The notes under the pieces: generated by a model | What the model saw: only the letters and a program-made list of their open reading frames with translations | What the model was told of the DNA's origin: nothing | Databases searched by the model: none | Made by a program: the position numbers and the translations under genes | Shown here: piece by piece, positions 1,597 through 37,759 of the stretch | How the letters are laid out: each line of letters begins with the position of its first letter | Position numbering within the stretch: the stretch's first letter is position 1 | Origin: Planctomycetota bacterium | GTDB lineage: Bacteria > Planctomycetota > Planctomycetia > Pirellulales > PLA5 | Direction of reading: 5' to 3' | Length of the DNA stretch: 52,027 bases | Assembly: GCA_029259895.1 (NCBI GenBank) | Contig: JAJDEG010000123.1 | Location: 1-52,027, forward strand

Positions 1597-2250
1597 TCAA
1601 GCCTCACGCCTTCGTTGGACGAGGGCGGCGAGCTTGTCGACGACCTCCTCGGGTGTGAGGCCGTCGGTGCGAACTTCGATGGCGTCGGGGGCCGGGACGA
1701 GGGGGCCGACGGTGCGGGTGGCGTCGCTGGCGTCGCGGTCGTTTTGTTGGGCTAGGACTTCGTCGAAGTCGATCGTTTCGCCGCGGGCGAGGAGGTCGGC
1801 GTGGCGGCGGCGGGCGCGTTCTTCGGCGCTGGCGGTGAGGAAGATTTTGCACTCGGCATTGGGGAAAGCGACCGTGCCTTGGTCGCGGCCTTCGGTGACA
1901 AAGTCGGCGGCGGCGACGACGCGCTGCTGGAGGGCGACGAGGTGCGCTCGGACTTGGGGATTGCCTGCGGTGTGGCGGGTGAGGCGGGTGACTTCGACGG
2001 TGCGGATGGCGGCCGTGACGTCCTCACCGTCGAGCAGGACGCGCTCGGCCGTGACGTCGATGTTGGCGGCATTGGCGGCGTCGGCGACGGCTTGGGCGTC
2101 GTTCCAGTCGACGCCGCGGCGATGGGCGGCCAGCGCGGCGGCGCGATACATCGCGCCAGTGTCGAGGAAGCGGAAGCCGAGACGCTCGGCGAGCCGCCGC
2201 GCGACGACGCTTTTACCGGCACCGGCGGGTCCGTCGATGGTGACGATCAT
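1597..2250 (-). CDS. cmk: Cytidylate kinase
   Basis: IVTIDGPAGAGKS, LDTGAMYRA, EGRDQGT and FLTASAEERARRR motifs. Confidence 0.97.
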   Translation of the reverse strand: MIVTIDGPAGAGKSVVARRLAERLGFRFLDTGAMYRAAALAAHRRGVDWNDAQAVADAANAANIDVTAERVLLDGEDVTAAIRTVEVTRLTRHTAGNPQVRAHLVALQQRVVAAADFVTEGRDQGTVAFPNAECKIFLTASAEERARRRHADLLARGETIDFDEVLAQQNDRDASDATRTVGPLVPAPDAIEVRTDGLTPEEVVDKLAALVQRRREA

Positions 2251-2308: not shown

Positions 2309-5116
2309 TTACCAGCGGGCTTCTAGGGCTAGCCATTGGCCGGCGGATAGTTCGGCGATGGCGTTGCCATCTTCCGTGGTTAGGTCGTAGACGGTTTTGC
2401 CGAGGAAGTCGACTTCTTGGGCCGTGGCGATGGGGTGCAATGCGGAGATGCGAACTTTCGCCGGACGGCCGAGCGTTTCGAGCAGGCGGGTGCGAAAGCC
2501 GACTGGTTTGCCGTCTTCGACAATGGGCGACCAGTGCGTGGCAACGACGTTCTTGGCGTCGATGTGGAAGAACCAACTCGTCGCGCCGACGGCTGGGGCG
2601 GTTGTCGGTTCGGCGAGCAGGGCTGGCGGCGCTAGCAGATCGAGAGCCGCGGCCATTGGCTGTTTAATGCCAAGGCCGAGGGCGATGCGATAGCGGCGGG
2701 CCGTTTCGCCGCGGGTGACGAGCAGCGTGTCGAGCATCCGCGGACCGCTCACTCGATGGTACGGCAGACCGAGCGTGAAGATCGTCACCATGCCTTGCGG
2801 CAAGTCGAGGTCGATGTAATGCGGAGCTTCGATGCGGGAAAGTTCGGTCGGTTGACGAAGGCCGCCGACTGTGCGAAAGAGGTTGGCGGTTTCGTCTGCC
2901 CAGGCGAAGCGGCTGCCGTAGTAGGAGTTCCAGGGATCGGCACGGGGCGGCTCGTCGATGTCGAGTTCGATGTCGATTTCGAGCACCGGGCGGCTGCGCC
3001 AGAGGCGGAACGTTTGGCGATAGCCGGCGAGGCGCTTGCCTTGGCGGTCGAGCAGGCGGCCGGCGGCGACGGTCTCGCCCAACACGGGGCCGGCGGACTT
3101 GACGGTGACGCGGTCGGCGGCCATGACCGAGTAGACGGCGGCCTCGTCGGGATCGCGCCACGGATCGCCGGAAGCTCGGGCAGGGCCGGGCGTGCGTAAC
3201 GCGAGTTGCTGCGAGATCAGGTTCTTGCGGTGATTGACGCCGCGGAAGGATTGTAGCGCTCCGGTGACCGGATTGACGTGGGCCTCGATGTAGCCGTTTT
3301 GGAGCAAGCCGGTTGCGTCGGCCATAGGGGCAGGTGGCTTGACGCGACCACGCGTCGCTGGCGGGGCTGTCTGGCTATCACCGCCGCCGATCCAGGCGAA
3401 ACCGAGCGGCGGAACTTCGACCACGGCGCGGCATACAGAGCCATCAACGCCGGCGGCAAGGACGGGACCGTCGACGTGCGGCGTGGCCATGCCGGATGGC
3501 ATGTTGACGCCCAAGCGGCGTTTGAAGCTCAACGGGTTGAAGACGAGAATGCCGGGAGAGCCGCCCGCGACGACGCGGGGAATGCGGTCGTTGATGGCGG
3601 CGATGAGGGCGTCGGGTGATTGGGCATCGCTGTTTGGCTGGCTACCGAGTGCAACGGCGATCGTATGGAGCGCGTCGTGGGCGGCGCGTGCGGCGGCGGC
3701 TTGGTGATCGCGAACGTGCCGCGAAATTGGATCGGGCCGCTCGCGGAGGACGTCGTGCGTAAGCAGCGGCGAGCGATATTCGTCGGCCTCGAAGCGGACG
3801 AAGACGCTGGGCGACGACGACTCGCCGAAGAAGTCCTCGATGGTGACGAACTTGCCGAGCACGGGCGCGTAGCGATGGGCGCGGCGAAGATCCTCGTGCC
3901 AACAGGCGACCTGACCGGGCCAATGGGCGAGCACGACGCAGGCGACGTGATGGTGGTCCATCGACTCGCCCATCTTGACCGAAAGGCCGAGAAAACTATC
4001 GGCACGGGCGGCATCGAGCGGCAGGCGGTTCAAGGCGTCGATGGCCGTGCCGTCGAGGCCTTCCCAGCGGGATTTCGCCTGCTCGCTCTGCGGGAAACGT
4101 CCCTCGTCGAGCGAAACGTGCCACGCTCCGGCGAAACCGGTCTTCGAGAGGAGCTGCGGAAGCCACGGGGCGATGGCGAAGCGGCGGCTTCCCCACACGG
4201 CCGGCTGGTGACCGAGGTGCTGCTCGTACAAGTTCAAGCCACGGCGGAAGTCCGTGAGGACGGTTTCCGGATCGGCCAGCGGCGGGTCGGCCGCGCCGTA
4301 CGATCCACCGATGACGCCGATACGCTTCTCTGTCCACGCCGTGCGGATGTCGGCGAGCGTGTCGCCGTGAGAATCGGCAAGCGCGGCGAGGTCGTCGCCG
4401 GCAAGGAGCAGGCTGACCGGAACTGGACCGGCGACTTCCCGGCGCAGCGACTGGCCAAGCGTCGTGGACGCCGTCAGGACCACGTCGATTAGATAGGCGT
4501 CGACGGGGTAGAAATGTTCACGGGCTTCGGCCAACACGTCGAAGCAGTTTTGCAGCCGGCGGCGGGTTTCTTCCTGGTCGTTGCCGACATAGGCGGTGGC
4601 GCCGGCGACGATCTGTTGGTTGAAGTTGGCCTGATCGATGTTGCTCATGTACCGCATGCGGCGGGTGAGCAGTTCGACCTGAAGGTAGAGAAAGCCGACG
4701 GCGAGAAAATCGGCGGCGAGGTCGTCTGTGGATGGATCGTCGGTTGAACTGCTGGCAGTCGGATTGTCGCTGTCATCCCGTTCATCGAGGGCGGCCAACG
4801 CCGCCGCGACGATCTCGCCGCGATGGCGAAGCTTGCGGATGACCGCCGCGCCTTCTTCTTCCGCCCGGCTGATATAGCCGGCGGGCAGTTCACGATCGCA
4901 CATTTCTGGCACGACGACCAACCGTCCGGCCAGCGTTTCCGGCGGGCAATCGACGCGCTGCCACGTCGGCATCGCCGCAGCCGATGCGATCAGCCTAGGA
5001 TGCCAGAGCGCCGACCACGCCGAAAGCACGGCCTCGGCCTCGTCGGCTTCATAATGGACCGGAAAGTCCTCCAGACTGTGGCACGGCAGTAGGACGATCA
5101 GTTCTTCGAACTTCAT
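2309..5116 (-). CDS. Large conserved hypothetical protein, glycoside hydrolase GH38/GH57 (alpha-mannosidase)-like
   Basis: 935-aa ORF with host-like codon usage. Segments WEGLDGTAI, VFNPLSFKRR, VEVPPLGFAW and LLQNGYIEAHVNPVTGAL resemble GH38 middle and C-terminal regions. Confidence 0.6.
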   Translation of the reverse strand: MKFEELIVLLPCHSLEDFPVHYEADEAEAVLSAWSALWHPRLIASAAAMPTWQRVDCPPETLAGRLVVVPEMCDRELPAGYISRAEEEGAAVIRKLRHRGEIVAAALAALDERDDSDNPTASSSTDDPSTDDLAADFLAVGFLYLQVELLTRRMRYMSNIDQANFNQQIVAGATAYVGNDQEETRRRLQNCFDVLAEAREHFYPVDAYLIDVVLTASTTLGQSLRREVAGPVPVSLLLAGDDLAALADSHGDTLADIRTAWTEKRIGVIGGSYGAADPPLADPETVLTDFRRGLNLYEQHLGHQPAVWGSRRFAIAPWLPQLLSKTGFAGAWHVSLDEGRFPQSEQAKSRWEGLDGTAIDALNRLPLDAARADSFLGLSVKMGESMDHHHVACVVLAHWPGQVACWHEDLRRAHRYAPVLGKFVTIEDFFGESSSPSVFVRFEADEYRSPLLTHDVLRERPDPISRHVRDHQAAAARAAHDALHTIAVALGSQPNSDAQSPDALIAAINDRIPRVVAGGSPGILVFNPLSFKRRLGVNMPSGMATPHVDGPVLAAGVDGSVCRAVVEVPPLGFAWIGGGDSQTAPPATRGRVKPPAPMADATGLLQNGYIEAHVNPVTGALQSFRGVNHRKNLISQQLALRTPGPARASGDPWRDPDEAAVYSVMAADRVTVKSAGPVLGETVAAGRLLDRQGKRLAGYRQTFRLWRSRPVLEIDIELDIDEPPRADPWNSYYGSRFAWADETANLFRTVGGLRQPTELSRIEAPHYIDLDLPQGMVTIFTLGLPYHRVSGPRMLDTLLVTRGETARRYRIALGLGIKQPMAAALDLLAPPALLAEPTTAPAVGATSWFFHIDAKNVVATHWSPIVEDGKPVGFRTRLLETLGRPAKVRISALHPIATAQEVDFLGKTVYDLTTEDGNAIAELSAGQWLALEARW

Positions 5117-30115: not shown

Positions 30116-31228
30116 CTACAGCAGATTAACGACCTTGTCGGCCAGACCCTTTTCGCCCAACACGACGTTGAGCTTCGACGCCGTGGCGATCTTCTCGAGG
30201 ACTTCCAGTTCCTTGAGCCGCATCAGCGTCGGACTTTCGGCCAGCAGCCGGGCCGTGTTGGCCTGGCTGCGCATGGCGGCCGTTTCCTCGCGACGGGCGA
30301 TGAGGTTCGCCTCGGCGACCTTCTTGGCCTCCGTGACGCGGTTCATCAGGTCCTTCATTTCGCCCGGCAGGATCACGTCGCGGATGCCGACCGAGATCAG
30401 TTCGATGCCGAGCGCGTGCGCCCGGCCGCGAACCGCTTCGGCTAACTCCGCCGCGACTGCGTCCTTGTCGACGAGGAAGGCGTCCAACTCGCGAGCGCCG
30501 ATCACCGCCCGCAAGGCAAGCTGCGCCTCGCGGTACAGCGCCTGCTGAGCGTTCTCGGCGACCGTCACGGCCAACCGCGCGTCGACGACGCGGTAGTTCA
30601 CCACGGCGTTGACGCGAAGCGTGACCTTGTCGGCCGTCATGATGTCCTGGCCCGCGATGTCGATCACCGCTTCACGCATGTCCTCCTGGACGAACGTGAC
30701 TTGCGCCACGTTCTTCCAGAAGGCGTAGCGGCCCGGCGGCAGCGTCTCGACGTAGCGGCCGTCGATGAGCAGCACGCCCTGATGGTGCGGCTCGACCGTG
30801 CCGATCTCCAGCACGCGGTCCGCCATCGACGAACGCGTGATCGTCTGCAGCGCGTTGTGCTCGAACCGCACGCGACGCGCGTCGACCACTTCGGACTTCA
30901 CCTCGCGGACGCCGGTCCAATACGCATACAAGCCCGGCGGCAGCACGTGACTGAAGCGGCCGTCGATCCACACGAGCGCGCGCTCGTTGTCCTTCAGGTC
31001 GAGCACGGTCGCGCGGCCCGCCAACGCGCTCGACTTGACGATCACGTCGAGCTTCACATGGACGAACCACGGATCGCGCTGCGACACGACTTCCACGCGG
31101 AGCTTGCCGAGCGGGTCGAACATCCAGTAGCAGCCCGGCGCGACGAGTCCGACGAACTCGTCGTCGCGGAACCGCAGGCCGATCTCGTAGCTGCGAATCG
31201 TGATGCGGTGGAACAACATGAAATACAT
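30116..31228 (-). CDS. Slipin family (SPFH/band-7) protein
   Basis: Repeated LPPG.Y.(F/Y)W beta units; GQDIMTADKVTLRVN, GIRDVILPGEMK and RREETAAMRSQANTARLL..PTLMRLKELE motifs; AAGGAG SD. Confidence 0.92.
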   Translation of the reverse strand: MYFMLFHRITIRSYEIGLRFRDDEFVGLVAPGCYWMFDPLGKLRVEVVSQRDPWFVHVKLDVIVKSSALAGRATVLDLKDNERALVWIDGRFSHVLPPGLYAYWTGVREVKSEVVDARRVRFEHNALQTITRSSMADRVLEIGTVEPHHQGVLLIDGRYVETLPPGRYAFWKNVAQVTFVQEDMREAVIDIAGQDIMTADKVTLRVNAVVNYRVVDARLAVTVAENAQQALYREAQLALRAVIGARELDAFLVDKDAVAAELAEAVRGRAHALGIELISVGIRDVILPGEMKDLMNRVTEAKKVAEANLIARREETAAMRSQANTARLLAESPTLMRLKELEVLEKIATASKLNVVLGEKGLADKVVNLL

Positions 31229-31339: not shown

Positions 31340-31721
31340 CAAAAAATGCCCGCGGGCGATGAATCGTGTTCGCCGGTCGCGCGAGTTCGTGCGGAGTGCG
31401 GTTGAGCATCGCGGCGACTGGTGGTCGAGCGGCTTGGCGGCGAGCGTTGCAAGAAGCAATTGCTTCCCGCGCAACTCGGCGCTTGGCCGACTTTTCCGGC
31501 AGTGCAGCGACGCGGTATCCGCGCACTTCAGGGCACTACGCTCGTGCTGCCGTTGGCGAACGCGCACAACGCCTCGACGCAACGCACGCGCCAGTTCACA
31601 ACTGGCACGGCGTCGGTTTCGTCGTTCGCACGCGCCGCCGCCGGCTGACCTGCAAATCGTTCATCGCCGTTGGGCGACGGTTCGTGCTTTTGGGGCACGT
31701 GGAGCCGATGGTTCGCATCGG
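31340..31721 (-). ncRNA. Candidate structured RNA between the tRNA-like element and slipin
   Basis: Dense hairpins (GCCGATG/CATCGGC, CGTGC/GCACG, GCCAGTT/AACTGGC, TCGGC/GCCGA), a long-range GGCGATGAA/TTCATCGCC pair and no convincing ORF. Confidence 0.4.
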
Positions 31722-31794
31722 CGAGTGGTGCGGGATTCGAACCCACTACAGCCAGATTCATGGTCTGGTGCTCTATCCACTGAGCTAACCACAG
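31722..31794 (-). ncRNA. tRNA-like element (Arg-ACG-like body, loop CC-ATG-AA, 5-bp acceptor stem)
   Basis: GTGGT TAGCTCAGTGGATAGAGCA CCAGA CCATGAA TCTGG CTGTA GTGGG TTCGAAT CCCGC ACCAC. Confidence 0.7.
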
Positions 31795-31949
31795 GGGGTG
31801 CATCGCGGCCTTCGTCATATTCCACTCGCGGAACACGAATCGCTAACCGTCCGTAGATCGGAGCGACGCGCGCCGCTGGCCCAGCCGCGAAATACCTTGC
31901 TTGAAAATCGTTGCGTGATGTCGGCACGTTAGCACCGCACCACGCAAAA

Positions 31950-32021
31950 AGACGCCGGTGGGAGTCGAACCCACTTTGAACCGCTTTGCAGGCGGTCGCC
32001 TCGCCGTCTGGCTCCAGCGTC
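31950..32021 (-). tRNA. tRNA-Cys(GCA)
   Basis: GACGCTG/CGGCGTC acceptor, ACCGC-CTGCAAA-GCGGT, GGTTCGACTCC, U73. Confidence 0.9.
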
Positions 32022-32095
32022 GTGACCTCGCTCGCCGTTACCGGTGAGCGAGGATAGCTTTCATTCTCTAAAAGTAGTGGTCGCGATTGACGCCA

Positions 32096-32263
32096 TCAAA
32101 AACGGCCTGCCTTCATGCAGCACTTCTTGAATCGCTTGCCGCTGCCGCACGGACACATGTCGTTTCGGCCGAGCTTTTCTTCGAGTTGCTTGTCGCCATG
32201 TACGATTCGCACGCCGCGCTTGACGTGCGTTTCGGATGGGAGGCCCTTACGCCGTTTACTCAT
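32096..32263 (-). CDS. Small SEC-C metal-binding motif protein (core frame; possibly extended at both ends by +1 frameshifts)
   Basis: MSKRRKG...[21 protein letters not shown]. Confidence 0.85.
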
Positions 32264-32306
32264 CGTCTCGAAAGCAGGACTGATCTTCTTGTTCGACCTC
32301 GCACAT
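32256..32306 (-). CDS. 16-aa upstream ORF ([16 protein letters not shown]) overlapping the SEC-C start
   Basis: GGAGGT 5 nt before the ATG; its stop overlaps the SEC-C ATG (ATG-AG-TAA); contains TTT-CGA. Confidence 0.55.
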
Positions 32307-32350
32307 GGCACACCTCCATCGTGGAAAACCTCGTTGCTTCCAACAATCAG

Positions 32351-32424
32351 CGTCCTCGCCAGGAGTCGAACCTGGCCCTCGACCTTCGCAGGGTCGCGTG
32401 CAACATCCGGCACACCCCGAGGAC
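32351..32424 (-). tRNA. tRNA-Arg(GCG)
   Basis: GTCCTCG/CGAGGAC, CGACC-CTGCGAA-GGTCG, CCAGG-TTCGACT-CCTGG. Confidence 0.85.
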
Positions 32425-32514
32425 TTGAACAGGGGTTGGGGGTCGGGGACTAGGGGCTGGGAAAACGCGACAACGTTCTATGCCCTCCCGCCTCTGGCCT
32501 CCGGCCTGCTCGAG

Positions 32515-32585
32515 CGCCTCGCCGAGGAGTCGAACCTCGTCTTGCAGTTTCGAAGACTGCCGTGCGTCCATCACACTCGCAAGGC
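32515..32585 (-). tRNA. tRNA-Arg(TCG)
   Basis: GCCTTGC/GCGAGGC, GCAGT-CTTCGAA-ACTGC, CGAGG-TTCGACT-CCTCG. Confidence 0.85.
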
Positions 32586-32975
32586 CGACCACCGTTGCCG
32601 CGGGCATCGCCGTCGACGACGAGCAACTGCGGCGACTTGATGCTCGTCGACGTAGACAATCCTTCCCGGCTCGTAGGTTCGCTGCATTTGAACGGGCACA
32701 CCGGCGTCGCGCACCGCGGCGACTAGCTCCCACATCGTCGCGATCATCCGCCGCGAACCGCAGCGAAACCAGAACAGCGCTCGCCAACCGTGGCCGCCGA
32801 GATCCGGCATGTGCAGATGTTCGCCGAACCAGTCAAGCGTCTCGCCAATCCAATCGCGCAGGACTTCGTCGACGTGCGCGGACGTTTCGACTTGTCCCGC
32901 CGCCGCGAATATTCCCAGTGGCCGCGCCGTGTTTTCGCACCGCAGCGGCGTTTGAAATCGCAAGTAAGTTTCCAT
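32571..32975 (-). CDS. Hypothetical protein within the tRNA array
   Basis: METYLRF...LDWFGEHL..P...ALFWFR...MWELVAAVRDAGVPV....PGRIVYVDEHQVAAV looks protein-like. The stop falls inside tRNA-Arg(TCG). Confidence 0.65.
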   Translation of the reverse strand: METYLRFQTPLRCENTARPLGIFAAAGQVETSAHVDEVLRDWIGETLDWFGEHLHMPDLGGHGWRALFWFRCGSRRMIATMWELVAAVRDAGVPVQMQRTYEPGRIVYVDEHQVAAVARRRRRCPRQRWSALRV

Positions 32976-33052
32976 CGCATTGGCTTTCGCACTGGCTTTC
33001 GCATTGTCGCGCTTCGCTTCATGACCGAAATGTCGTTGATTCAATTAGACAA

Positions 33053-33141
33053 AGCCGACGACTGGATTCGCACCAGCATGAGCCGCCGTCTTTCCGTGTT
33101 GCCGTCAAGACCGGCGGTTTTCTACGTCGAGCCACGTCGGC
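33053..33141 (-). ncRNA. tRNA-like element with an extended anticodon arm and no canonical anticodon loop
   Basis: Perfect GCCGACG/CGTCGGC acceptor; GCTGG-TGCGAAT-CCAGT T-arm; CCGCC(G)GTCTT/AAGACGGCGG arm with a 14-nt loop. Confidence 0.6.
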
Positions 33142-33144
33142 AAG

Positions 33145-33215
33145 CACGAGCGCGAGGATTCGAACCCCGTGCGCCGGCTTTGGAGACCGGCTGCTCTCCC
33201 AGGAGCACACTCGTG
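33145..33215 (-). tRNA. tRNA-Trp(CCA)
   Basis: ACGAGTG/CGCTCGT, CCGGT-CTCCAAA-GCCGG, GGTTCGAATCC, G73; short D loop. Confidence 0.8.
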
Positions 33216-33256
33216 TTTCGCTCAACGACAGCCAGCCGCCGGGCGACGCTTCTACA

Positions 33257-33850
33257 TTACGATTGCAGCGGAACATTCCAGTACGTTTCGCTGACGAACT
33301 TCGACCAGCTTTCACTCGCCACGTCGTGCCGGGCGTATAGGGGCTTCCATGTCGGCCGCACCGGCGGCTTGCGCAGCTTCATGCCGGCCTCGCGCGGCGT
33401 GCGGTCGGCCTTGCGGTGGTTGCACGCGATGCACGCCAGCACGCAGTTCGTCCACGACGACGCGCCGCCTTTCGCACGCGGTGTAACGTGGTCGATGGTC
33501 AACTCGCCGCCGCCGGGCTGAGCGCCGCAGTATTGGCAGGTCCAGTGGTCCCGCTTGAATACGTTGCGCCGGCTGAAGCTGACCGCCGCGTCGGGCAACC
33601 GGTCGTACTCGGCCAGCACAATCACCTCCGGCACGCGCAGCCGTCGCCGCACCGCGCGGATGAACGCATCGCCGTCGCGCGGCGCGATCCGCGACCAATC
33701 GGCCCAGGTGTAAAGCTGGTAAGTCTCCGGATCGACCACCCGCGCCGCCTCGTTCCACACCAGCACCAGCGCCCGGGCGACAGTCGCTACGTTCACCGGC
33801 TGCCAGTTGCGGTTGAGGATCAGCGCCGGGCGCTGTAGTGTACGAGTCAT
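33257..33850 (-). CDS. HNH endonuclease (McrA-like)
   Basis: LILNRNWQPV, FSRRNVFKRDHWTCQYCG, LTIDHVTPRAKGG.SSWTNCVLAC..CN.RKADRTP motifs; ATG at 33850. Confidence 0.93.
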   Translation of the reverse strand: MTRTLQRPALILNRNWQPVNVATVARALVLVWNEAARVVDPETYQLYTWADWSRIAPRDGDAFIRAVRRRLRVPEVIVLAEYDRLPDAAVSFSRRNVFKRDHWTCQYCGAQPGGGELTIDHVTPRAKGGASSWTNCVLACIACNHRKADRTPREAGMKLRKPPVRPTWKPLYARHDVASESWSKFVSETYWNVPLQS

Positions 33851-33879
33851 GGTTCTTGATCCAACTTGGAGTCGCGATT

Positions 33880-34281
33880 GTGGTTGAAGAGCGAAAAGTT
33901 GACGTTTTTTGGACGGTCCGCAAGGGTCAGCGTCATTCAATTTCGTTGACGGAAAACGAAGCCTGGAAGTATCTTGAATTGCGTGCTTATTTCGGCGAGG
34001 AACCGAACGGATGGTCAGTCGATAAAACACGTGAAGTGGTCCCCGTTGTTTACGGAGAGATCGTTGAAGGCGAGGGAACAATGGTGGAGTTGGATGATGA
34101 CGGCAATGAAACGGTTTGTCGGGCGTACATTGCGTTAAGCGTATTCTGGAACTGCCCACACTGCGGCGAACGGCACAATGTCAGCCTCTACGATAACCCT
34201 ATCGAACAAACGGCCGAGGCATCGAATCCGTCGATCTGGGTTTGTGAACGGGGCGAAGGGCATTCGATTGTTCATTGGTAG
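33880..34281 (+). CDS. Hypothetical protein with a CPHC motif, antisense to the array
   Basis: GGAG then GTG at 33880; acidic 133-aa ORF with visibly lower GC than its neighbours. Confidence 0.55.
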   Translation: MVEERKVDVFWTVRKGQRHSISLTENEAWKYLELRAYFGEEPNGWSVDKTREVVPVVYGEIVEGEGTMVELDDDGNETVCRAYIALSVFWNCPHCGERHNVSLYDNPIEQTAEASNPSIWVCERGEGHSIVHW

Positions 34282-34332
34282 CCGTTGGATTGCGACGCGC
34301 GCATCCGACGGCGTTCCAATCTGAACATTGAG

Positions 34333-34407
34333 GGTATCTGACCGGACTCGAACCGGTACCTCTTGGTTCACAGCCAAGTGTGCAGAAACCGCTACACCAC
34401 AGACACC
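34333..34407 (-). tRNA. tRNA-His(GTG)
   Basis: G-1:C73, GTGTCTG/CAGATAC, CTTGG-CTGTGAA-CCAAG. Confidence 0.9.
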
Positions 34408-34412
34408 ACATC

Positions 34413-34491
34413 AGGCTATAGGCTGTAGGCTGTAGGTCAGAGAAGGCGTGCGTCTGCAACCTAAAATCCTACGGCCTACAGCCTCCGGCCT
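34413..34491. repeat. Heptamer inverted-repeat spacer (AGGCTGT/ACAGCCT)
   Basis: aggctat aggctgt aggctgt agg ... cctacgg cctacag cctccgg cct. Confidence 0.75.
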
Positions 34492-34499
34492 ATTCTCAG

Positions 34500-34586
34500 C
34501 GGAAAGCAAGGGAGTCGAACCCTCATCTCGACGAGCGAGAACCGCGTTAGCACCGCGGCCCGGCCAACCGTATCCGGCTACCTTCC
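34500..34586 (-). tRNA. tRNA-Ser(GCT)
   Basis: GGAAGGT/GCTTTCC, CCGCG-GTGCTAA-CGCGG, long variable arm, G73. Confidence 0.88.
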
Positions 34587-34596
34587 GAGTTCGGCC

Positions 34597-35020
34597 GTAG
34601 GGGTTTAGGCTTTAGGTATTTAGGGAATGAGTATGCGAGACCATACGAAACTTCGGGCGTTCGAATTGGCGGATCGGCTCGCAATCGCGGTCTACAGGTC
34701 CACGGCGACGTTTCCTCGTGAGGAGCAGTTCGGCCTCACTTCGCAAATGCGCCGCGCGGCGGTTTCTGTCCCTTCCAACATCGTTGAAGGATGTGCGAGA
34801 GACTCCAGATCGGACTATGTCCGGTTTCTGGGTATCGCGTTCGGTTCCCTTCGAGAGTTGGATTACCAAGCGTCGCTCGCTCATCGCCTCGGCTATCTTG
34901 CCGGTTACGAATCGCTCGCGGCGCTCATGACCGAAACGTCCAAAGTTCTCGCTGCGTTGATCCGCTCTCTTCGTTCTCCCAAAACCTAACTGCCTAAACT
35001 CCTACAGCCTAAACTCCTAC
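34597..35020. mobile_element. IVS-like cassette: four-helix-bundle gene flanked by inverted TTTAGG/CCTAAA repeats
   Basis: Left end GTAGGGGTTTAGGC versus right end GCCTAAACTCCTAC (13/14 inverted match), with further TTTAGG/CCTAA units inside. Confidence 0.6.
34627..34989 (+). CDS. Four helix bundle protein (23S rRNA intervening-sequence protein family)
   Basis: FPREEQFGLTSQMRRAAVSVPSNIVEG and RFLGIAFGSLREL motifs. The start may be 34633. Confidence 0.93.
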   Translation: MSMRDHTKLRAFELADRLAIAVYRSTATFPREEQFGLTSQMRRAAVSVPSNIVEGCARDSRSDYVRFLGIAFGSLRELDYQASLAHRLGYLAGYESLAALMTETSKVLAALIRSLRSPKT

Positions 35021-35025
35021 CGCAG

Positions 35026-35096
35026 TGGACCGCCGGGGAGTCGAACCCCGATCCCCTGGTTGCAAGCCAGGTATCTTTCCGTTGGACGAGCAGCCC
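35026..35096 (-). tRNA. tRNA-Ala(TGC)
   Basis: G3:U70, CCTGG-CTTGCAA-CCAGG, A73. Confidence 0.9.
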
Positions 35097-35112
35097 GATT
35101 CTTCTGCTTCAA

Positions 35113-35183
35113 GGGTTCGTCCGGGAACTGAACCCGGCCTTCCGCCTTACCACGGCGGCGTGCAGCCGAAACACCTACAGACC
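35113..35183 (-). tRNA. tRNA-Thr(GGT), degenerate
   Basis: CCGCC-GTGGTAA-GGCGG; C:A mismatch in the acceptor stem; T loop TTCAGTT. Confidence 0.7.
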
Positions 35184-35193
35184 GTTCTTCGAG

Positions 35194-35266
35194 TGATCCC
35201 GGATGGAGTCGAACCATCGCTCTCCTGCTTGTCACGCAGGCGTCTTCGCCGTTGGACCACGGGATC
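35194..35266 (-). tRNA. tRNA-Val(GAC)
   Basis: GATCCCG/CGGGATC, CCTGC-GTGACAA-GCAGG, A73. Confidence 0.88.
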
Positions 35267-35275
35267 AGATACAAG

Positions 35276-35351
35276 TGACCGGAGTGGGCGTCGAACCCAC
35301 AAAATCACGAGGCTCTCGACCTCGTCGCTTTACCAGTTTGCGTACCCGGTC
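35276..35351 (-). tRNA. tRNA-Leu(GAG), short variable region, C33
   Basis: GACCGGG/TCCGGTC, CGAGG-TCGAGAG-CCTCG, variable region TGATTTT. Confidence 0.8.
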
Positions 35352-35443
35352 GGAACACGCCGGAGGCTGTAGACGGGAGGCCGGAGGAAAACTCGCAATT
35401 GCGTTCCTCAAGTCTCCGGCCTCAAGCCTCGCGTCTCTTCAAG

Positions 35444-35512
35444 TGGCAGGCTCGGGTGTCGCACCCGACGGTCCGGGCTTATGAGGCCCAGTTGAGCACT
35501 GGCTCGCCTGCG
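35444..35512 (-). tRNA. tRNA-Met(CAT)-like, non-canonical
   Basis: C1:C72 mismatch, GCAGGC/GCCTGC, TGGGC-CTCATAA-GCCCG, reduced D arm, T loop TGCGACA. Confidence 0.65.
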
Positions 35513-35516
35513 TCGT

Positions 35517-35620
35517 GGGAGGCTTGAGGGATGAGGCTTGAGGCGAGAGGAATGCAGTACAGCGTCTTCCTCAAGTCTCAAGTCTCAAGTCTCAAGCCTC
35601 ACGCCTCACGCCTCACGCCT
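35517..35620. repeat. Heptamer inverted-repeat spacer (GAGGCTT/AAGCCTC)
   Basis: gaggctt gagggat gaggctt gaggcga ... ctcaagt x3, ctcaagc, ctcacgc x3. Similar spacers at 32430-32508, 35361-35430, 35715-35807, 35886-35979 and 37515-37581. Confidence 0.8.
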
Positions 35621-35627
35621 TTTGCAG

Positions 35628-35714
35628 TGGGTCGTGAAGGAATTGAACCTCTCGTCGTCCACCTCACTTGTTTGCTGACAACGGCTTTACAGGCCGCCGT
35701 GAGGAACACGACCC
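35628..35714 (-). tRNA. tRNA-Tyr(GTA) lacking a D arm
   Basis: GGGTCGT/ACGACCC, GCGGC-CTGTAAA-GCCGT, long variable region, GG-TTCAATT-CC, A73. Confidence 0.7.
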
Positions 35715-35809
35715 GGAGGAGCTTTGAGTCCTGAGGTTTGAGGCGTGAGGGTTATAGAACCAACGGGCGATGCCTTCGGAACCTCAAGCCTCGTCCCTCA
35801 AGCCTCCAG

Positions 35810-35883
35810 TGGCACAGGCGGGAGTCGAACCCGCAGTCACCAAGGTTTGAGCTTGGCCGCTTTGCCGGTTTGCGTACCGTGCC
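35810..35883 (-). tRNA. tRNA-Leu(CAA), short variable loop
   Basis: GGCACGG/CTGTGCC, CCAAG-CTCAAAC-CTTGG, variable loop TGACT. Confidence 0.85.
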
Positions 35884-35981
35884 GTGGGAAGGCGCGAGGC
35901 TTGAGGCATGGGGCGTGAGGATCGTGCTGATTTCCATTTCCTCCTCAAGCCTCATCCCTCGAGCCTCAAGCCTACTCCCAG

Positions 35982-36056
35982 CGTCCCCGACGGGATTTGA
36001 ACCCGTGACCTCCACCGTGACAGGGTGGCGAGCACTCCAGGCTGCTCCACGAGGAC
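35982..36056 (-). tRNA. tRNA-Asp(GTC)
   Basis: GTCCTCG/CGGGGAC, CCACC-CTGTCAC-GGTGG, G73. Confidence 0.93.
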
Positions 36057-36071
36057 GATTCAATTTTGCAG

Positions 36072-36145
36072 TGGCTCAGGTGGGACTCGAACCCACAGCA
36101 TCTCTCGTTCTAAGCGAGAGTGGTCTGCCGATTGCCTACCGAGCC
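36072..36145 (-). tRNA. tRNA-Leu(TAG), short variable loop
   Basis: GGCTCGG/CTGAGCC, TCTCG-CTTAGAA-CGAGA. Confidence 0.85.
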
Positions 36146-36155
36146 GAAAGGTCAG

Positions 36156-36229
36156 TGCCCAGGGCCGGAGTCGAACCGGCAACCGCGTGGGTTTAAGCCG
36201 CGCCGCTCTACCGATTGGCGTACCTGGGC
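36156..36229 (-). tRNA. tRNA-Leu(TAA), short variable loop
   Basis: GCCCAGG/CCTGGGC, CGCGG-CTTAAAC-CCACG (one mismatch). Confidence 0.82.
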
Positions 36230-36232
36230 GAG

Positions 36233-36304
36233 TGGTCCCGGATGGACTCGAACCATCGTTTCCTGGGTGTAGGCCAGGAGTCGTTGCCGCTGGACCACGG
36301 GACT
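36233..36304 (-). tRNA. tRNA-Val(TAC), C33 and A1:C72
   Basis: CCTGG-CCTACAC-CCAGG, GATGG-TTCGAGT-CCATC. Confidence 0.8.
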
Positions 36305-36325
36305 GTTTGCATGATCGAGTCGAAG

Positions 36326-36400
36326 TTCCGGGGGTTGGAATCGAACCAACGGCTTTCTGATTCAGAGTCAGGCGTCACTACCAGCAGCAACTGCCCCGGA
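36326..36400 (-). tRNA. tRNA-Gln(CTG)
   Basis: TCCGGGG/CCCCGGA (U1-A72), CTGA-CTCTGAA-TCAG. Confidence 0.85.
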
Positions 36401-36436
36401 ATGCTGTTCGTGCTGACATGACTCGTCGCACGAAGG

Positions 36437-36507
36437 CTCGGGGAGATGGATTCGAACCACCACTGCCTGGTTCAAAGCCAGGCGGCCTGCCGTTAGCCGA
36501 TCCCCGA
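36437..36507 (-). tRNA. tRNA-Gln(TTG)
   Basis: TCGGGGA/TCCCCGA, CCTGG-CTTTGAA-CCAGG. Confidence 0.9.
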
Positions 36508-36517
36508 ATATCGTGAA

Positions 36518-36589
36518 AGTGCCCTGCGAGAGTCGAACTCGCCTGTCCAGCTTGGAAGGCTGGCGCCTCTGCCGCTCGGCCAAGGGCAC
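36518..36589 (-). tRNA. tRNA-Gly(TCC)
   Basis: GTGCCCT/AGGGCAC, CCAGC-CTTCCAA-GCTGG, U73. Confidence 0.88.
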
Positions 36590-36609
36590 GTCACTACGAA
36601 AGCTAGAGG

Positions 36610-36693
36610 CGGAAGGAGAGGGAGTCGAACCCTCAAGGCTCATCGCTCGACTGTTTTCGAAACAGTTGCCGTCGCCCATCGGCTTGCCCTTCC
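36610..36693 (-). tRNA. tRNA-Ser(CGA)
   Basis: GGAAGGG/TCCTTCC, ACTGT-TTCGAAA-ACAGT, long variable arm, G73. Confidence 0.9.
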
Positions 36694-36707
36694 GTATTCA
36701 TCAAAAG

Positions 36708-36782
36708 CTGCGGCGGCAGGAATCGAACCTGCGACTGGGCGCTTAACAGGCGCCTGCCGGTACCAGCACCGGCCCCACCGCA
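36708..36782 (-). tRNA. tRNA-Asn(GTT)
   Basis: TGCGGTG/CGCCGCA, GGCGC-CTGTTAA-GCGCC, G73. Confidence 0.88.
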
Positions 36783-36788
36783 ATCGAG

Positions 36789-36863
36789 TCGGCGTAGTTG
36801 GATTCGAACCAACGATCTCCTGCTCCCGAAGCAGGCGGATTTGCCAGGCTATCCCATACGCCG
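36789..36863 (-). tRNA. tRNA-Pro(CGG)
   Basis: CGGCGTA/TACGCCG, CCTGC-TTCGGGA-GCAGG, A73. Confidence 0.92.
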
Positions 36864-36871
36864 GTCGTCAA

Positions 36872-36942
36872 AGCGCCCAGCGGGAGTCGAACCCGCGCTT
36901 CCGCCTCGGCAAGGCAGCAGGCTGCCGCTACATCATGGGCGC
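36872..36942 (-). tRNA. tRNA-Gly(GCC)
   Basis: GCGCCCA/TGGGCGC, CTGCC-TTGCCGA-GGCGG, U73; weak D stem. Confidence 0.85.
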
Positions 36943-36973
36943 GCTTGGAGAAGTAAATTGTCAAAGAACTGAA

Positions 36974-37045
36974 AGCACTGGGCCGGACTCGAACCGGCGT
37001 TACCGCGTTACGAACGCGGAGTCCTTGCCTCTGGACGACCAGTGC
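36974..37045 (-). tRNA. tRNA-Thr(CGT)
   Basis: GCACTGG/CCAGTGC, CCGCG-TTCGTAA-CGCGG. Confidence 0.9.
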
Positions 37046-37076
37046 TTGCCAACGTCTTGTCGGTGTGACTTATCAG

Positions 37077-37149
37077 TGGGACCAGAAGGACTCGAACCTT
37101 CACCGACCTGGTTAAGAGCCAGGCATGCTGCCGCTAACACTTTGATCCC
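37077..37149 (-). tRNA. tRNA-Lys(CTT)
   Basis: GGGATCA/TGGTCCC, CCTGG-CTCTTAA-CCAGG. Confidence 0.9.
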
Positions 37150-37186
37150 GTTCAATCTCTGCTTGTCGTTTCCGCCTCTCGCGCGA

Positions 37187-37259
37187 TCGGCGCGGAAGGA
37201 GTCGAACCTTCGACCTGTGTCTTATAAGGACACGGCTCTCACCGCTGAGCTACGCGCCG
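37187..37259 (-). tRNA. tRNA-Ile(TAT)
   Basis: CGGCGCG/CGCGCCG, canonical D and T arms, GTGTC-CTTATAA-GACAC, A73. Confidence 0.9.
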
Positions 37260-37405
37260 GCACTGAAGCCAGACCAATCTGGCCGAATGGGGCCGAAGGG
37301 AGTCGAACCCTTACCATTCCGCTTAAAAGGCGGAAGCGCTACCGTTACGCCACGACCCCGAAAATGGATCGGACGTATGCGTTTGAGCCGCGTCGTTTGT
37401 CGCAT
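37250..37405 (-). CDS. Candidate 51-aa Arg-rich ORF reading through tRNA-Lys(TTT)
   Basis: AAGGAG-AACAACA-ATG CGA CAA ACG ACG CGG CTC AAA CGC ATA CGT ...; stops at the TAG in the 5' end of tRNA-Ile(TAT). Confidence 0.45.
   Translation of the reverse strand: MRQTTRLKRIRPIHFRGRGVTVALPPFKRNGKGSTPFGPIRPDWSGFSAGA
37288..37359 (-). tRNA. tRNA-Lys(TTT)
   Basis: GGGGTCG/CGGCCCC, TCCGC-CTTTTAA-GCGGA. Confidence 0.9.
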
Positions 37406-37438
37406 TGTTGTTCTCCTTGCGTTCTTTGCTCGCGCGAA

Positions 37439-37509
37439 TAGTCCGGGGTGGAGTTGAACCACCGCCGACGACGTATCAGATCGCCATGCTTCCGTTACAC
37501 CACCGGACA
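37439..37509 (-). tRNA. tRNA-Ile(GAT)
   Basis: GTCCGG/CCGGAC with U1:U72, GCGAT-CTGATAC-GTCGT. Confidence 0.8.
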
Positions 37510-37586
37510 GCAATCAGGCCGAAGGCCCAAGGCGGTGGGTCGACAATGCGTTTACTCGTGCGGCCTACCGCCTCCAGCCTGCTCAG

Positions 37587-37660
37587 CGGCTCGTATGGGA
37601 GTCGAACCCATCTCCCGGCCTTGAAAGGGCCGTATCCTCAAACCGATAGACGAACGAGCC
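37587..37660 (-). tRNA. tRNA-Glu(TTC)
   Basis: GGCTCGT/ACGAGCC, CGGCC-CTTTCAA-GGCCG, G73. Confidence 0.92.
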
Positions 37661-37687
37661 GAAATCTGCGCGCACACTGAGCGCAAG

Positions 37688-37759
37688 TGGGTCGGGAGGC
37701 GCTCGAATCCTCGTCTCCTGGTCTTCAACCAAGCGCTAAACCATCTCAGCTACCGACCC
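37688..37759 (-). tRNA. tRNA-Phe(GAA), non-canonical (G37, A53:G61)
   Basis: GGGTCGG/CCGACCC, CTTGG-TTGAAGA-CCAGG, T arm GAGGA-TTCGAGC-GCCTC. Confidence 0.78.

What the first reader, a model, noticed from the sequence alone, without database searches (positions are those of the whole stretch)
32061..32317. SEC-C mini-gene with three successive UUU-Y +1 frameshift sites
Seen: the only strong SD (GGAGGT, 5-nt spacing) opens a 16-aa ORF containing UUU_CGA, where a +1 slip (UUU to UUC) enters the SEC-C frame ([10 protein letters not shown]...). The SEC-C frame ends at UUU_UGA, whose +1 frame reads DGVNRDHYF and ends at UUU_UAG. The +1 frame of that site reads RE-stop. Each site has a Phe codon able to re-pair in the +1 frame, followed by a slow codon (rare CGA or a stop). 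Established: this resembles the prfB CUU_UGA shifty stop and the influenza PA-X UUU_CGU site. Inference: product length reports the state of tRNA-Arg, release factors or tRNA-Phe. The gene sits directly downstream of tRNA-Arg(TCG) and tRNA-Arg(GCG). Alternative for site 1: simple translational coupling through the ATG-AG-TAA overlap.
Basis: partly seen in the sequence, partly recalled or inferred. Interest (0 to 1): 0.85.

Follow-up and report, generated by a model that had tools for sequence, protein, structure and literature searches.

The report
Tiny zinc-knuckle gene needing three frameshifts
A tiny, widely conserved bacterial gene for a zinc-binding protein can be read in full only if the ribosome slips forward one base at three UUU codons, a layout kept across many bacterial groups and apparently not yet described in print.

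Summary
On the minus strand, a strong Shine-Dalgarno sequence and ATG (32306) open a 12-codon N-peptide. UUU_C (32273-32270) leads +1 into the SEC-C core, UUU_U (32101-32098) leads +1 into DGVNRDHYF, and UUU_U (32073-32070) leads +1 into RE-stop (32061).

I compared 80 related loci from species-representative genomes. The layout is conserved:
- Site 1 is UUU+Y in 79 of 80 tabulated loci.
- Site 2 needs a shift in 75 of 80.
- Site 3 needs a shift in 66 of 79.

Each segment varies like coding sequence in its own frame. Twelve of 80 loci have no ATG/GTG/TTG at the core's "Met" position. Natural in-frame fusions exist at every junction, and there the Phe codon is TTC or is not followed by a pyrimidine.

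The best reading is serial programmed +1 ribosomal frameshifting that makes an ~80-aa zinc-knuckle protein (confidence 0.85). No experiment backs it yet. There is no internal SD or conserved RNA stimulator, and CGA is not rare in this genome.

The family lies beside RNA-repair genes (33 of 79 loci) or tRNA genes (12 of 79). I found no published description. Another window of this scan reached the same reading.

The parts
32312..32317 (-). Shine-Dalgarno GGAGGT, 5 nt before the start codon
   Evidence: An SD-like motif precedes the upstream start in 77 of 80 loci, and a strong 5-mer does in 66 of 80.
32271..32306 (-). N-peptide, 12 codons (ATG 32306 to Phe TTT 32273-32271). Unshifted ribosomes run on to TAA 32258-32256, giving the 16-aa ORF.
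   Evidence: All 80 loci have an upstream start with a path into the core (73 ATG). The median N-peptide is 12 aa and the consensus ends DFDEQPFF. The coding signature is weak: synonymous fraction 0.17 against 0.10 and 0.11 in the other frames.
32270..32273 (-). Shift site 1: UUU_C. The 0-frame A-site codon is CGA and the +1 codon is GAG.
   Evidence: Across 80 loci: TTT+CGA 62, TTT+TGA 16, TTT+CAA 1, and 1 locus where this junction is in frame and a UUU_UAG site lies further upstream.
32099..32269 (-). Linker (E-T) plus SEC-C zinc-knuckle core, 57 codons. Contains the internal ATG 32263-32261. Ends in Phe TTT 32101-32099.
   Evidence: Pfam SEC-C E 3.2e-9. There are 840 protein clusters at E<=0.01. 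Synonymous fraction is 0.74 in the core and 0.50 in the linker, against 0.07 or less in the other frames.
32098..32101 (-). Shift site 2: UUU_U. The 0-frame codon is the stop TGA 32098-32096 and the +1 codon is GAT.
   Evidence: Across 80 loci: TTT_TGA 64, TTT_CGA 6, CTT_TGA 2, CTG_TGA 3, in frame 5. L054 was dropped by my pattern; by eye it has CTT_TGA.
32071..32097 (-). Tail segment DGVNRDHYF (9 codons) in the +1 frame of the core
   Evidence: Mean entropy by codon position is 0.58, 0.47 and 1.21. Synonymous fraction is 0.54, against 0.21 and 0.09 in the other frames, n=79. The tail is in frame with the core in L050, L071, L072, L078, L084 and in many database proteins.
32070..32073 (-). Shift site 3: UUU_U. 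The 0-frame codon is the stop TAG 32070-32068 and the +1 codon is AGA.
   Evidence: Of 79 evaluable loci: TTT_TAG 43, TTT_CAG 18, TTT_CCG 5, in frame 11 (7 with TTC, 1 with TTT followed by A, 3 non-Phe), other 2.
32061..32069 (-). Last two codons R-E and the final stop TGA
   Evidence: Arg is kept across codon families (AGA 35, AGG 30, CGN 12). The end peptides are RE 33, RD 18, REKD 7 and similar.
32026..32053 (-). GC-rich hairpin (8+3 pairs, GTAA loop). It starts 7 nt after the final stop and ends 4 nt before tRNA-Cys.
   Evidence: MFE -29.2 kcal/mol, z -4.3 for the 63 nt from the final stop. 52 of 77 loci have a hairpin of 8 or more pairs within 70 nt; the median gap is 9 nt, and 26 of the 52 are followed by a T-rich stretch.
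32350..32424 (-). tRNA-Arg(gcg) directly upstream (context)
   Evidence: ARAGORN; it does not reach the Rfam tRNA gathering score. The same order Arg(gcg)-gene occurs in 9 of 79 loci.
31950..32021 (-). tRNA-Cys(gca) directly downstream (context)
   Evidence: (48.2 bits). It is downstream of the gene in 8 of 79 loci.

Best explanation
One small gene is read in four pieces by three programmed +1 ribosomal frameshifts.

1. Ribosomes start at AUG 32306 behind a strong SD.
2. At each of three UUU_Y sites, the peptidyl-tRNA-Phe (anticodon GAA) on UUU re-pairs one base forward, on UUC at site 1 and on UUU at sites 2 and 3. Reading then continues with GAG (Glu), GAU (Asp) and AGA (Arg).
3. The full product is an ~80-residue protein: an acidic N-peptide, a basic stretch, a SEC-C zinc knuckle, and the tail [11 protein letters not shown].
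4. Ribosomes that do not slip stop early. After site 1 they stop four codons on, at a UAA that overlaps the internal AUG, so re-initiation could give a 55-aa core in this lineage. At sites 2 and 3 they stop on UGA or UAG.

Shown: the layout, its conservation, and frame-specific purifying selection. Inferred: that the ribosome does the shifting, how efficiently it does so, and what the protein does.

The likely role, inferred from gene neighbourhood only, is an RNA- or ribosome-binding factor of the tRNA/ribosome damage response. Its yield would depend on the state of decoding.
For: - **The TTTY=F rule.** It gives one open 80-aa product in the window. In 72 of 81 loci it gives a complete product from an SD-led start to the conserved end.
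- **Junction tables.** P-site codon TTT followed by C or T: site 1, 79 of 80; site 2, 70 of 80, plus CTT_T 2 (the prfB site) and CTG_T 3; site 3, 66 of 79.
- **In-frame junctions.** Where a junction is in frame, the codon is TTC, TAC or TAT, or TTT followed by a purine. Site 2: 5 of 5. Site 3: 8 of 11, the other 3 being non-Phe codons.
- **Coding signature in each segment's own frame.** Arg after site 3 switches between AGR and CGN codons.
- **No in-frame start.** 12 of 80 loci lack ATG/GTG/TTG at the core's Met position. 8 of those 12 have no in-frame start at all.
- **Natural fusions.** P0121 (73 aa) is in frame throughout; many proteins have core and tail in frame.
- **Repeated change of the 0-frame codon.** The fewest changes on a core tree are 11 at site 1, 11 at site 2 and 24 at site 3, while the need to shift stays. 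The tree rests on about 150 nt and is weak.
- **Published background.** UUU_Ynn is described as especially prone to +1 shifting in bacteria, and UCC_UUU_CGU is the influenza cassette (passages of PMC5009743). 18 of 79 loci have TCC_TTT_CGA.
- **SD-less shifting.** prfB shift sites commonly lack the SD in Planctomycetota and Cyanobacteria (passages of PMC10798248).
- **No special tRNA.** ARAGORN finds no tRNA with a 4-base anticodon among the 81 tRNAs of the genome.
Against: - No protein, ribosome-profiling or RNA data exist for any member. The RNA contigs I laid do not cover the gene.
- There is no conserved internal SD before the sites: 9 of 79, 35 of 75 and 18 of 67 loci have any SD-like word.
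- There is no conserved RNA structure around sites 2 and 3: 3 pairs, 0 compensatory changes.
- UUU-Y is not avoided in this genome. 6386 of 11286 TTT codons in long ORFs are followed by C or T, so UUU-Y alone cannot be highly shifty here.
- With three serial sites, the full-length yield could be very low unless an unseen stimulator exists.
- 5 loci carry an in-frame TTT_C inside the core that must be read normally.
- 16 of 80 loci have a run of seven T at site 1. They need two +1 steps, or one -1 step, or slippage by RNA polymerase.
- 3 loci have CTG_TGA at site 2, where re-pairing is not possible.
Confidence: 0.85

Rival explanations
1. Only the 55-aa core is made, from the internal ATG 32263, by coupling to the 16-aa upstream ORF through the ATG/TAA overlap. 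The flanking conservation reflects something other than coding.
For: In the window the upstream ORF's TAA overlaps the ATG region. 68 of 80 loci keep ATG at that position. In the seven-T loci the upstream ORF ends in an ATGA overlap. Gene callers usually predict 55 aa.
Against: - 12 of 80 loci have no ATG/GTG/TTG at that position, and 8 of those have no in-frame start at all.
- In the single-shift loci the upstream ORF's own stop lies anywhere from +5 to +173.
- The linker, the tail and RE all show codon-like variation in their proposed frames.
- Natural in-frame fusions exist.
Confidence: 0.05
2. The frame changes are made in the RNA, by polymerase slippage on the T runs or by editing, and the ribosome reads normally.
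For: 16 of 80 loci have seven T at site 1. On such a run, adding or losing one U would put the upstream ORF in the core frame or in the one-shift frame. Slippage on long T/A runs is established (review PMC5009743, passages).
Against: Most sites are runs of only three to five T. Site 1 has three T in 35 of 80 loci, including this window. That is far below the run lengths known to slip. No RNA data are available either way.
Confidence: 0.05
3. UUUY is read as a four-base codon by a dedicated tRNA with an enlarged anticodon loop, for example one from the adjacent tRNA array.
For: A single rule, TTTY=F, decodes the gene. The gene sits in a 30-tRNA array in this window.
Against: - ARAGORN reports no tRNA with a 4-base anticodon among the 81 tRNAs of the genome. 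Both tRNA-Phe genes have anticodon gaa.
- 65 of 79 loci have no tRNA gene within 2.5 kb.
- 5 loci have a core TTT_C that must be read as a triplet.
- TTT-Y is common genome-wide.
Confidence: 0.02
4. Sequencing or assembly error, or a decaying pseudogene.
For: The sites are homopolymer runs. One decayed copy does exist on a Manganitrophus plasmid.
Against: The same sites occur in 80 independent assemblies, including complete genomes. All segments are under purifying selection. A second assembly shows no indels.
Confidence: 0.01

Closest known systems
prfB (release factor 2) programmed +1 frameshift, CUU_UGA
   Same: A P-site tRNA on NUU slips onto UUN while a stop codon waits in the A site. 2 tabulated loci, plus L054 by eye, use CUU_UGA itself at site 2. 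UUU_U is used by a minority of prfB genes (PMC5009743 passage).
   Different: There are three sites in one ~80-codon gene. There is no conserved internal SD. The 0-frame codon is often a sense codon: CGA at site 1 in 62 of 80 loci, CAG or CCG at site 3 in 23 of 66. The product is not a release factor, so no obvious autoregulatory loop exists. prfB of this genome matches the family model in one frame.
UUU_Ynn +1 shift-prone sites in bacteria (E. coli error sites; Yersinia YopN-TyeA fusion)
   Same: The same tetranucleotide, working without a need for a stop codon (PMC5009743 passage).
   Different: Those are single sites of low level, or of a single lineage. Here the sites are obligatory for the conserved product, come in series, and are kept across phyla.
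Influenza A PA-X shift cassette UCC_UUU_CGU
   Same: UCC_UUU_CGN: 18 of 79 loci have TCC_TTT_CGA at site 1. The window has TGC_TTT_CGA.
   Different: That is a viral mRNA on eukaryotic ribosomes, where CGU is rare. Here the ribosomes are bacterial and CGA is not rare.
Genes with many +1 shifts in Euplotes and in some mitochondria
   Same: Several +1 shifts within one gene, often at stop codons (PMC5009743 passages).
   Different: There it is a property of the whole translation system. Here it is one gene family in otherwise ordinary bacterial genomes.
SEC-C metal-binding motif of SecA, YecA and YchJ
   Same: The CxC...CC zinc-knuckle motif. It matches Pfam PF02810 and the solved YchJ and SecA C-terminal peptides.
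   Different: This is a stand-alone ~80-aa protein with its own conserved basic N-terminal half and tail. No NCBIfam family reaches its cut-off.

Membership tests
SEC-C motif (Pfam PF02810) | Match to the 19-position profile above the gathering score | tested here: met
   36.9 bits against a cut-off of 20.4, covering residues 33-51 of the 55-aa core.
YecA / YchJ families (NCBIfam equivalogs) | Whole-protein score above the curated cut-off | tested here: not met
   The best score is 39.9 bits against a cut-off of 140. Only the C-terminal motif aligns.
Programmed +1 ribosomal frameshift (prfB type) | P-site codon able to re-pair in the +1 frame | tested here: met
   All three window sites are UUU_Y. 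Across loci this holds for 79 of 80, 72 of 80 (TTT or CTT) and 66 of 79. The exception is 3 loci with CTG_T at site 2.
Programmed +1 ribosomal frameshift (prfB type) | Stop or slowly read codon in the 0-frame A site | tested here: inconclusive
   In the window the codons are CGA, UGA and UAG. CGA is not rare here. Site 3 has CAG or CCG in 23 of 66 shifting loci.
Programmed +1 ribosomal frameshift (prfB type) | Internal Shine-Dalgarno stimulator a few nt upstream of the site | tested here: not met
   Only 9 of 79, 35 of 75 and 18 of 67 loci have any SD-like word upstream. This element is also often missing from prfB in Planctomycetota (PMC10798248 passages).
Programmed +1 ribosomal frameshift (any type) | Downstream frame conserved as protein, and the shift site conserved among homologs | tested here: met
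   in-frame natural fusions.
Programmed +1 ribosomal frameshift (any type) | Trans-frame protein demonstrated | not testable with these tools
   No proteomic or profiling data. The RNA contigs do not cover the gene.
tRNA array unit (at least 20 tRNA genes, at least 2 per kb; definition in the abstract of PMC4758250) | Number and density of tRNA genes around the gene | tested here: met
   ARAGORN finds 30 tRNA genes at 31720-37759, about 5 per kb. 23 of them reach the Rfam gathering score.

The most novel reading that the evidence does not exclude
The three serial UUU-Y sites act as a steep gauge of the state of decoding. Full-length protein appears only when slipping becomes frequent at all three sites. 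That could happen when tRNAs are cut or under-modified, or when release factors are limiting. The zinc-knuckle protein then works with the RNA-repair enzymes (Hen1, RNA ligase, RlaP, Ro60) or the back-up tRNA arrays that it is encoded beside. A ribosome that reaches the last stop would also sit on the foot of the hairpin that starts a median of 9 nt downstream. That could couple frameshifting to what happens to the downstream RNA. If so, this would be a natural example of a trans-frame protein made specifically under translational stress. The 2016 review says no such example is known (PMC5009743 passage).
Probability: 0.2. Interest if true: 0.95.

Novelty: new variant of a known kind. Interest (0 to 1): 0.85.

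Why it matters
Apart from prfB, conserved +1 frameshifting in bacterial chromosomal genes is very rare. I know of no bacterial gene reported to need three or four shifts (this rests on my searches and on the review passages I read).

The family is small, widespread and present in cultured bacteria, including Massilia, Stieleria and Novipirellula by record title. That makes it a practical natural system for three questions:
- what makes UUU-Y slip without an SD or a pseudoknot;
- whether cells use frameshift frequency as a signal;
- what a stand-alone SEC-C knuckle does next to tRNA-repair genes.

It also matters for annotation. Gene callers predict a 55-aa stub, a spurious N-terminal extension, or nothing at all.

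Tried and rejected
- **Internal SD stimulators.** None is conserved.
- **Conserved RNA structure around sites 2 and 3.** RNAalifold gives -0.53 kcal/mol, 3 pairs and no compensatory change.
- **'Every in-frame UUU-Y is a four-base codon'.** The rule fails in 9 of 81 loci. In 5 of them the cause is a core TTT_C that must be read normally. The other 4 are non-canonical starts or misses of my search patterns.
- **Structure.** AlphaFold2 of the natural in-frame homolog P0121 with a 39-row alignment gave mean pLDDT 55, with only the knuckle near 70. I ran no fold search.
- **Expression.** Four runs were laid. The RNA contigs cover only tRNA parts, SEC-C motifs of other genes, and tRNA-Cys with 43 nt of its leader. 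They say nothing about the gene's expression.
- **Phage and plasmid collections.** Matches are to the SEC-C motif only, except one distant phage-contig hit (48% identity) and a decayed copy on two Manganitrophus plasmids.
- **prfB of this genome as an internal control for SD-less shifting.** It matches the model in one open frame, so it is no help.
- **Hairpin as an attenuator specific to repair operons.** Its frequency is the same with repair neighbours (20 of 33) and without (31 of 43).
- **Burroughs and Aravind 2016, on RNA-repair operons.** I could not open it. It or its supplements may mention a SEC-C neighbour.
- **Literature searches that found no description of this gene.**, and 'find' look-ups in PMC5009743 (only its first 300,000 characters are held), PMC8421152 and PMC4758250.

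Full report
**1. What is in the window**

The feature lies on the minus strand, between tRNA-Arg(gcg) (32350-32424) and tRNA-Cys(gca) (31950-32021). It sits inside an array of 30 co-oriented tRNA genes at 31720-37759.

- GGAGGT at 32317-32312, then five bases, then ATG 32306.
- Twelve codons that end in TTT (32273-32271), followed by CGA.
- One base forward, the frame reads E-T-M-S-K-R-R-K-G and continues through a SEC-C zinc knuckle. Pfam PF02810 scores 36.9 bits against a cut-off of 20.4.
- That frame ends TTT TGA (32101-32096).
- One base forward it reads DGVNRDHYF and ends TTT TAG (32073-32068).
- One base forward again it reads R-E and TGA (32069-32061).

With the single rule 'TTT followed by C or T is one step', the stretch gives one open product of 80 residues with exactly three such steps.

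**2. Not an artefact**

The contig that another assembler built from the best-holding public run covers 32007-32500. It differs by one substitution and has no inserted or deleted letters. That run may be the source sample, so this only excludes an assembler slip. The stronger argument is the recurrence in other genomes, described next.

**3. Comparative evidence**

The 55-aa core has 840 protein clusters at E<=0.01. Most are exactly 55 aa and 75-89% identical to it.

The best 80 were kept. By their record titles most are Planctomycetota. Others are titled Massilia, Verrucomicrobiae, Cyanobacteria, Melainabacteria, Bdellovibrionales, Binataceae, Desulfatiglandales, Deinococcales and Lysobacterales.

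I tabulated 80 of the 81 loci (the window plus 80). L054 was dropped by my pattern for the tail. By eye it has the same layout, with CTT_TGA at site 2.

Junction counts:

| Site | Loci that need a shift | In frame, other or not evaluable |
|---|---|---|
| 1 | TTT+CGA 62, TTT+TGA 16, TTT+CAA 1 | 1 locus (L072): this junction is in frame and a UUU_UAG site lies further upstream |
| 2 | TTT_TGA 64, TTT_CGA 6, CTT_TGA 2, CTG_TGA 3 | in frame 5 |
| 3 | TTT_TAG 43, TTT_CAG 18, TTT_CCG 5 | in frame 11, other 2, truncated contig 1 |

Where a junction is in frame, the Phe or Tyr codon is TTC, TAC or TAT, or is TTT followed by a purine. At site 2 this holds for 5 of 5. At site 3, 7 have TTC, 1 has TTT followed by A, and 3 have non-Phe codons. 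So 'TTT plus a pyrimidine' and 'TTC' replace each other at these junctions.

**4. Each segment is coding in its own frame**

- *Tail (79 loci).* Mean entropy at codon positions 1, 2 and 3 is 0.58, 0.47 and 1.21. Of the codons that differ from the consensus, 54% are synonymous in the proposed frame, against 21% and 9% in the other two.
- *Core (positive control).* 74%, against 7% and 6%.
- *Glu-x-Met-Ser linker just before the internal ATG.* 50%, against 5% and 3%.
- *After site 3.* Arg is kept through a change of codon family (AGA 35, AGG 30, CGN 12). The ends are RE 33, RD 18, REKD 7 and similar.
- *N-peptide.* Only weakly conserved: 17% against 10% and 11%; consensus end DFDEQPFF.

**5. The core often cannot start on its own**

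12 of 80 loci have ACC, ACG, ATC, TCN or CTG where the window has ATG 32263. In 8 of these 12 the core frame holds no ATG, GTG or TTG between the upstream stop and the tenth core codon.

All 80 loci have an upstream start with a path into the core (73 use ATG). It is preceded by an SD-like motif in 77. Simple coupling therefore cannot be the general route, although it remains a possible side route in this window.

**6. Natural fusions**

Database proteins include one that is in frame throughout (P0121, 73 aa) and many with core and tail in frame. Loci L050, L071, L072, L078 and L084 have site 2 in frame. L050 and L084 also have site 3 in frame. The joined protein is therefore the conserved unit, and lineages differ in how many junctions need a shift, from none to four.

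**7. Mechanism**

The most economical reading is P-site slippage of tRNA-Phe(GAA) from UUU to UUY. Review passages state that UUU_Ynn is especially shift-prone in bacteria even without a stop codon. They also give UCC_UUU_CGU as the influenza PA-X cassette, and note that a minority of prfB genes use UUU_U (PMC5009743). 18 of 79 loci have TCC_TTT_CGA at site 1.

What I could not find is a stimulator:
- There is no conserved internal SD. Passages of PMC10798248 say that prfB sites in Planctomycetota and Cyanobacteria also mostly lack it.
- There is no conserved RNA structure at sites 2 and 3.

Other points against a simple picture:
- CGA is not rare in this genome, and TTT-Y is common: 6386 of 11286 TTT codons in 1552 naive long ORFs.
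- 5 loci hold a core TTT_C that must be read normally.
- 3 loci have CTG_TGA at site 2.
- 16 of 80 loci have seven T at site 1. They need two +1 steps, or one -1 step, or RNA-polymerase slippage.

A dedicated four-base-anticodon tRNA is unlikely. ARAGORN reports none among the 81 tRNAs of the genome, and 65 of 79 loci have no tRNA gene within 2.5 kb. The efficiency of shifting and any regulation of it remain unknown.

**8. Context and likely role (inference)**

In 33 of 79 loci, at least one RNA-repair-type gene lies within 2.5 kb, mostly downstream on the same strand. The families are HD+AAA_33 kinase (14 loci), Hen1 (12), RlaP (10), Ro60/TROVE (9) and RNA ligase (7). Family names come from Pfam on one representative of each BLAST cluster.

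12 of 79 loci are next to tRNA genes. 9 of them have the order Arg(gcg)-gene, 8 of these with Cys(gca) next, inside large arrays as in this window.

The gene was found in 27 of 401 sampled genomes of the phylum, with a patchy spread, and in one copy in this genome.

A GC-rich hairpin follows the final stop in 52 of 77 loci, with a median gap of 9 nt. In the window it is at 32053-32026. It is no more frequent next to repair genes than elsewhere.

I infer an RNA- or ribosome-binding factor of the tRNA/ribosome damage response. This rests on neighbourhood only.

**9. Novelty**

I found no paper that describes this gene or its frameshifts (searches; look-ups). No NCBIfam family covers it. I could not open the main survey of RNA-repair operons, and supplements were closed.

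A note from another window of this scan (e1-5201118) reached the same reading in another genome. It is an unchecked AI note and not independent evidence. I re-derived its claims here from this window.

**10. Verdict**

This is a new, multi-site variant of programmed +1 frameshifting in a conserved bacterial mini-gene. It still awaits any experimental proof.

Noticed in passing
window 31720-37759, minus strand: Array of 30 co-oriented tRNA genes, including the odd anticodons His(atg) and Ile(tat). The contig holds 31 of the genome's 81 tRNA genes, so the array looks like a second set; tRNA-Phe(gaa), for example, is also on another contig. 7 of the 30 ARAGORN calls, including both tRNA-Arg genes next to the mini-gene, do not reach the Rfam tRNA gathering score.
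   Followed up: partly
window 33257-34159 (-) and 34627-34989 (+): Two protein genes lie inside the tRNA array: an HNH endonuclease (Pfam HNH, E 9e-13) and a 23S rRNA-intervening-sequence protein (PF05635, E 9e-32). An SPFH/Band 7 gene (30116-31228, -) follows the array.
   Followed up: partly
window 32026-32053 (-), and 52 of 77 related loci: A GC-rich hairpin lies just after the final stop of the mini-gene (median gap 9 nt). Half of the hairpins are followed by a T-rich stretch. In the window the hairpin ends 4 nt before tRNA-Cys. It could be a terminator, a processing signal or an attenuator; which one is not resolved.
   Followed up: partly
L009, L010, L012, L015, L017, L019, L024, L034, L044, L046, L047, L062, L069, L076, L081 and one more locus with seven T: In 16 of 80 loci, site 1 is a run of seven T before CGA. 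The upstream ORF is then two bases out of the core frame and ends in an ATGA overlap with the internal ATG. Two successive +1 steps, one -1 step or polymerase slippage would all reach the core frame. Which one operates is unexplained.
   Followed up: partly
L056, L059, L066 (site 2): Three loci have CTG_TGA instead of TTT_TGA at site 2, and one codon fewer in the core. The tail and end are still intact in the +1 frames. Re-pairing of tRNA-Leu is not possible there, so another way of shifting, or loss of the tail in these species, must be assumed.
   Followed up: no
L088 (Candidatus Manganitrophus plasmid CP114562.1, locus 3950-4200): A decayed, unannotated copy of the mini-gene. The site-1 TTT has become TCT and there is a stop inside the zinc knuckle. 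It lies between a tyrosine recombinase gene and SIR2/ATPase genes.
   Followed up: partly
window 31948-32064: Contigs from two estuary metatranscriptome runs (X2, X16) cover tRNA-Cys plus 43 nt of its 5' leader with 1-2 differences. They reach the last codons of the mini-gene but go no further.
   Followed up: no
G000:C725:9868-10896: prfB of this genome matches the family model at positions 9-353 in one open frame of 391 aa, so it appears to lack the usual programmed frameshift.
   Followed up: no
window 2028-2122 (+): ARAGORN calls a 95-nt tRNA-Ala(ggc) far from the array. The length is odd for a tRNA-Ala. I did not check it against Rfam.
   Followed up: no
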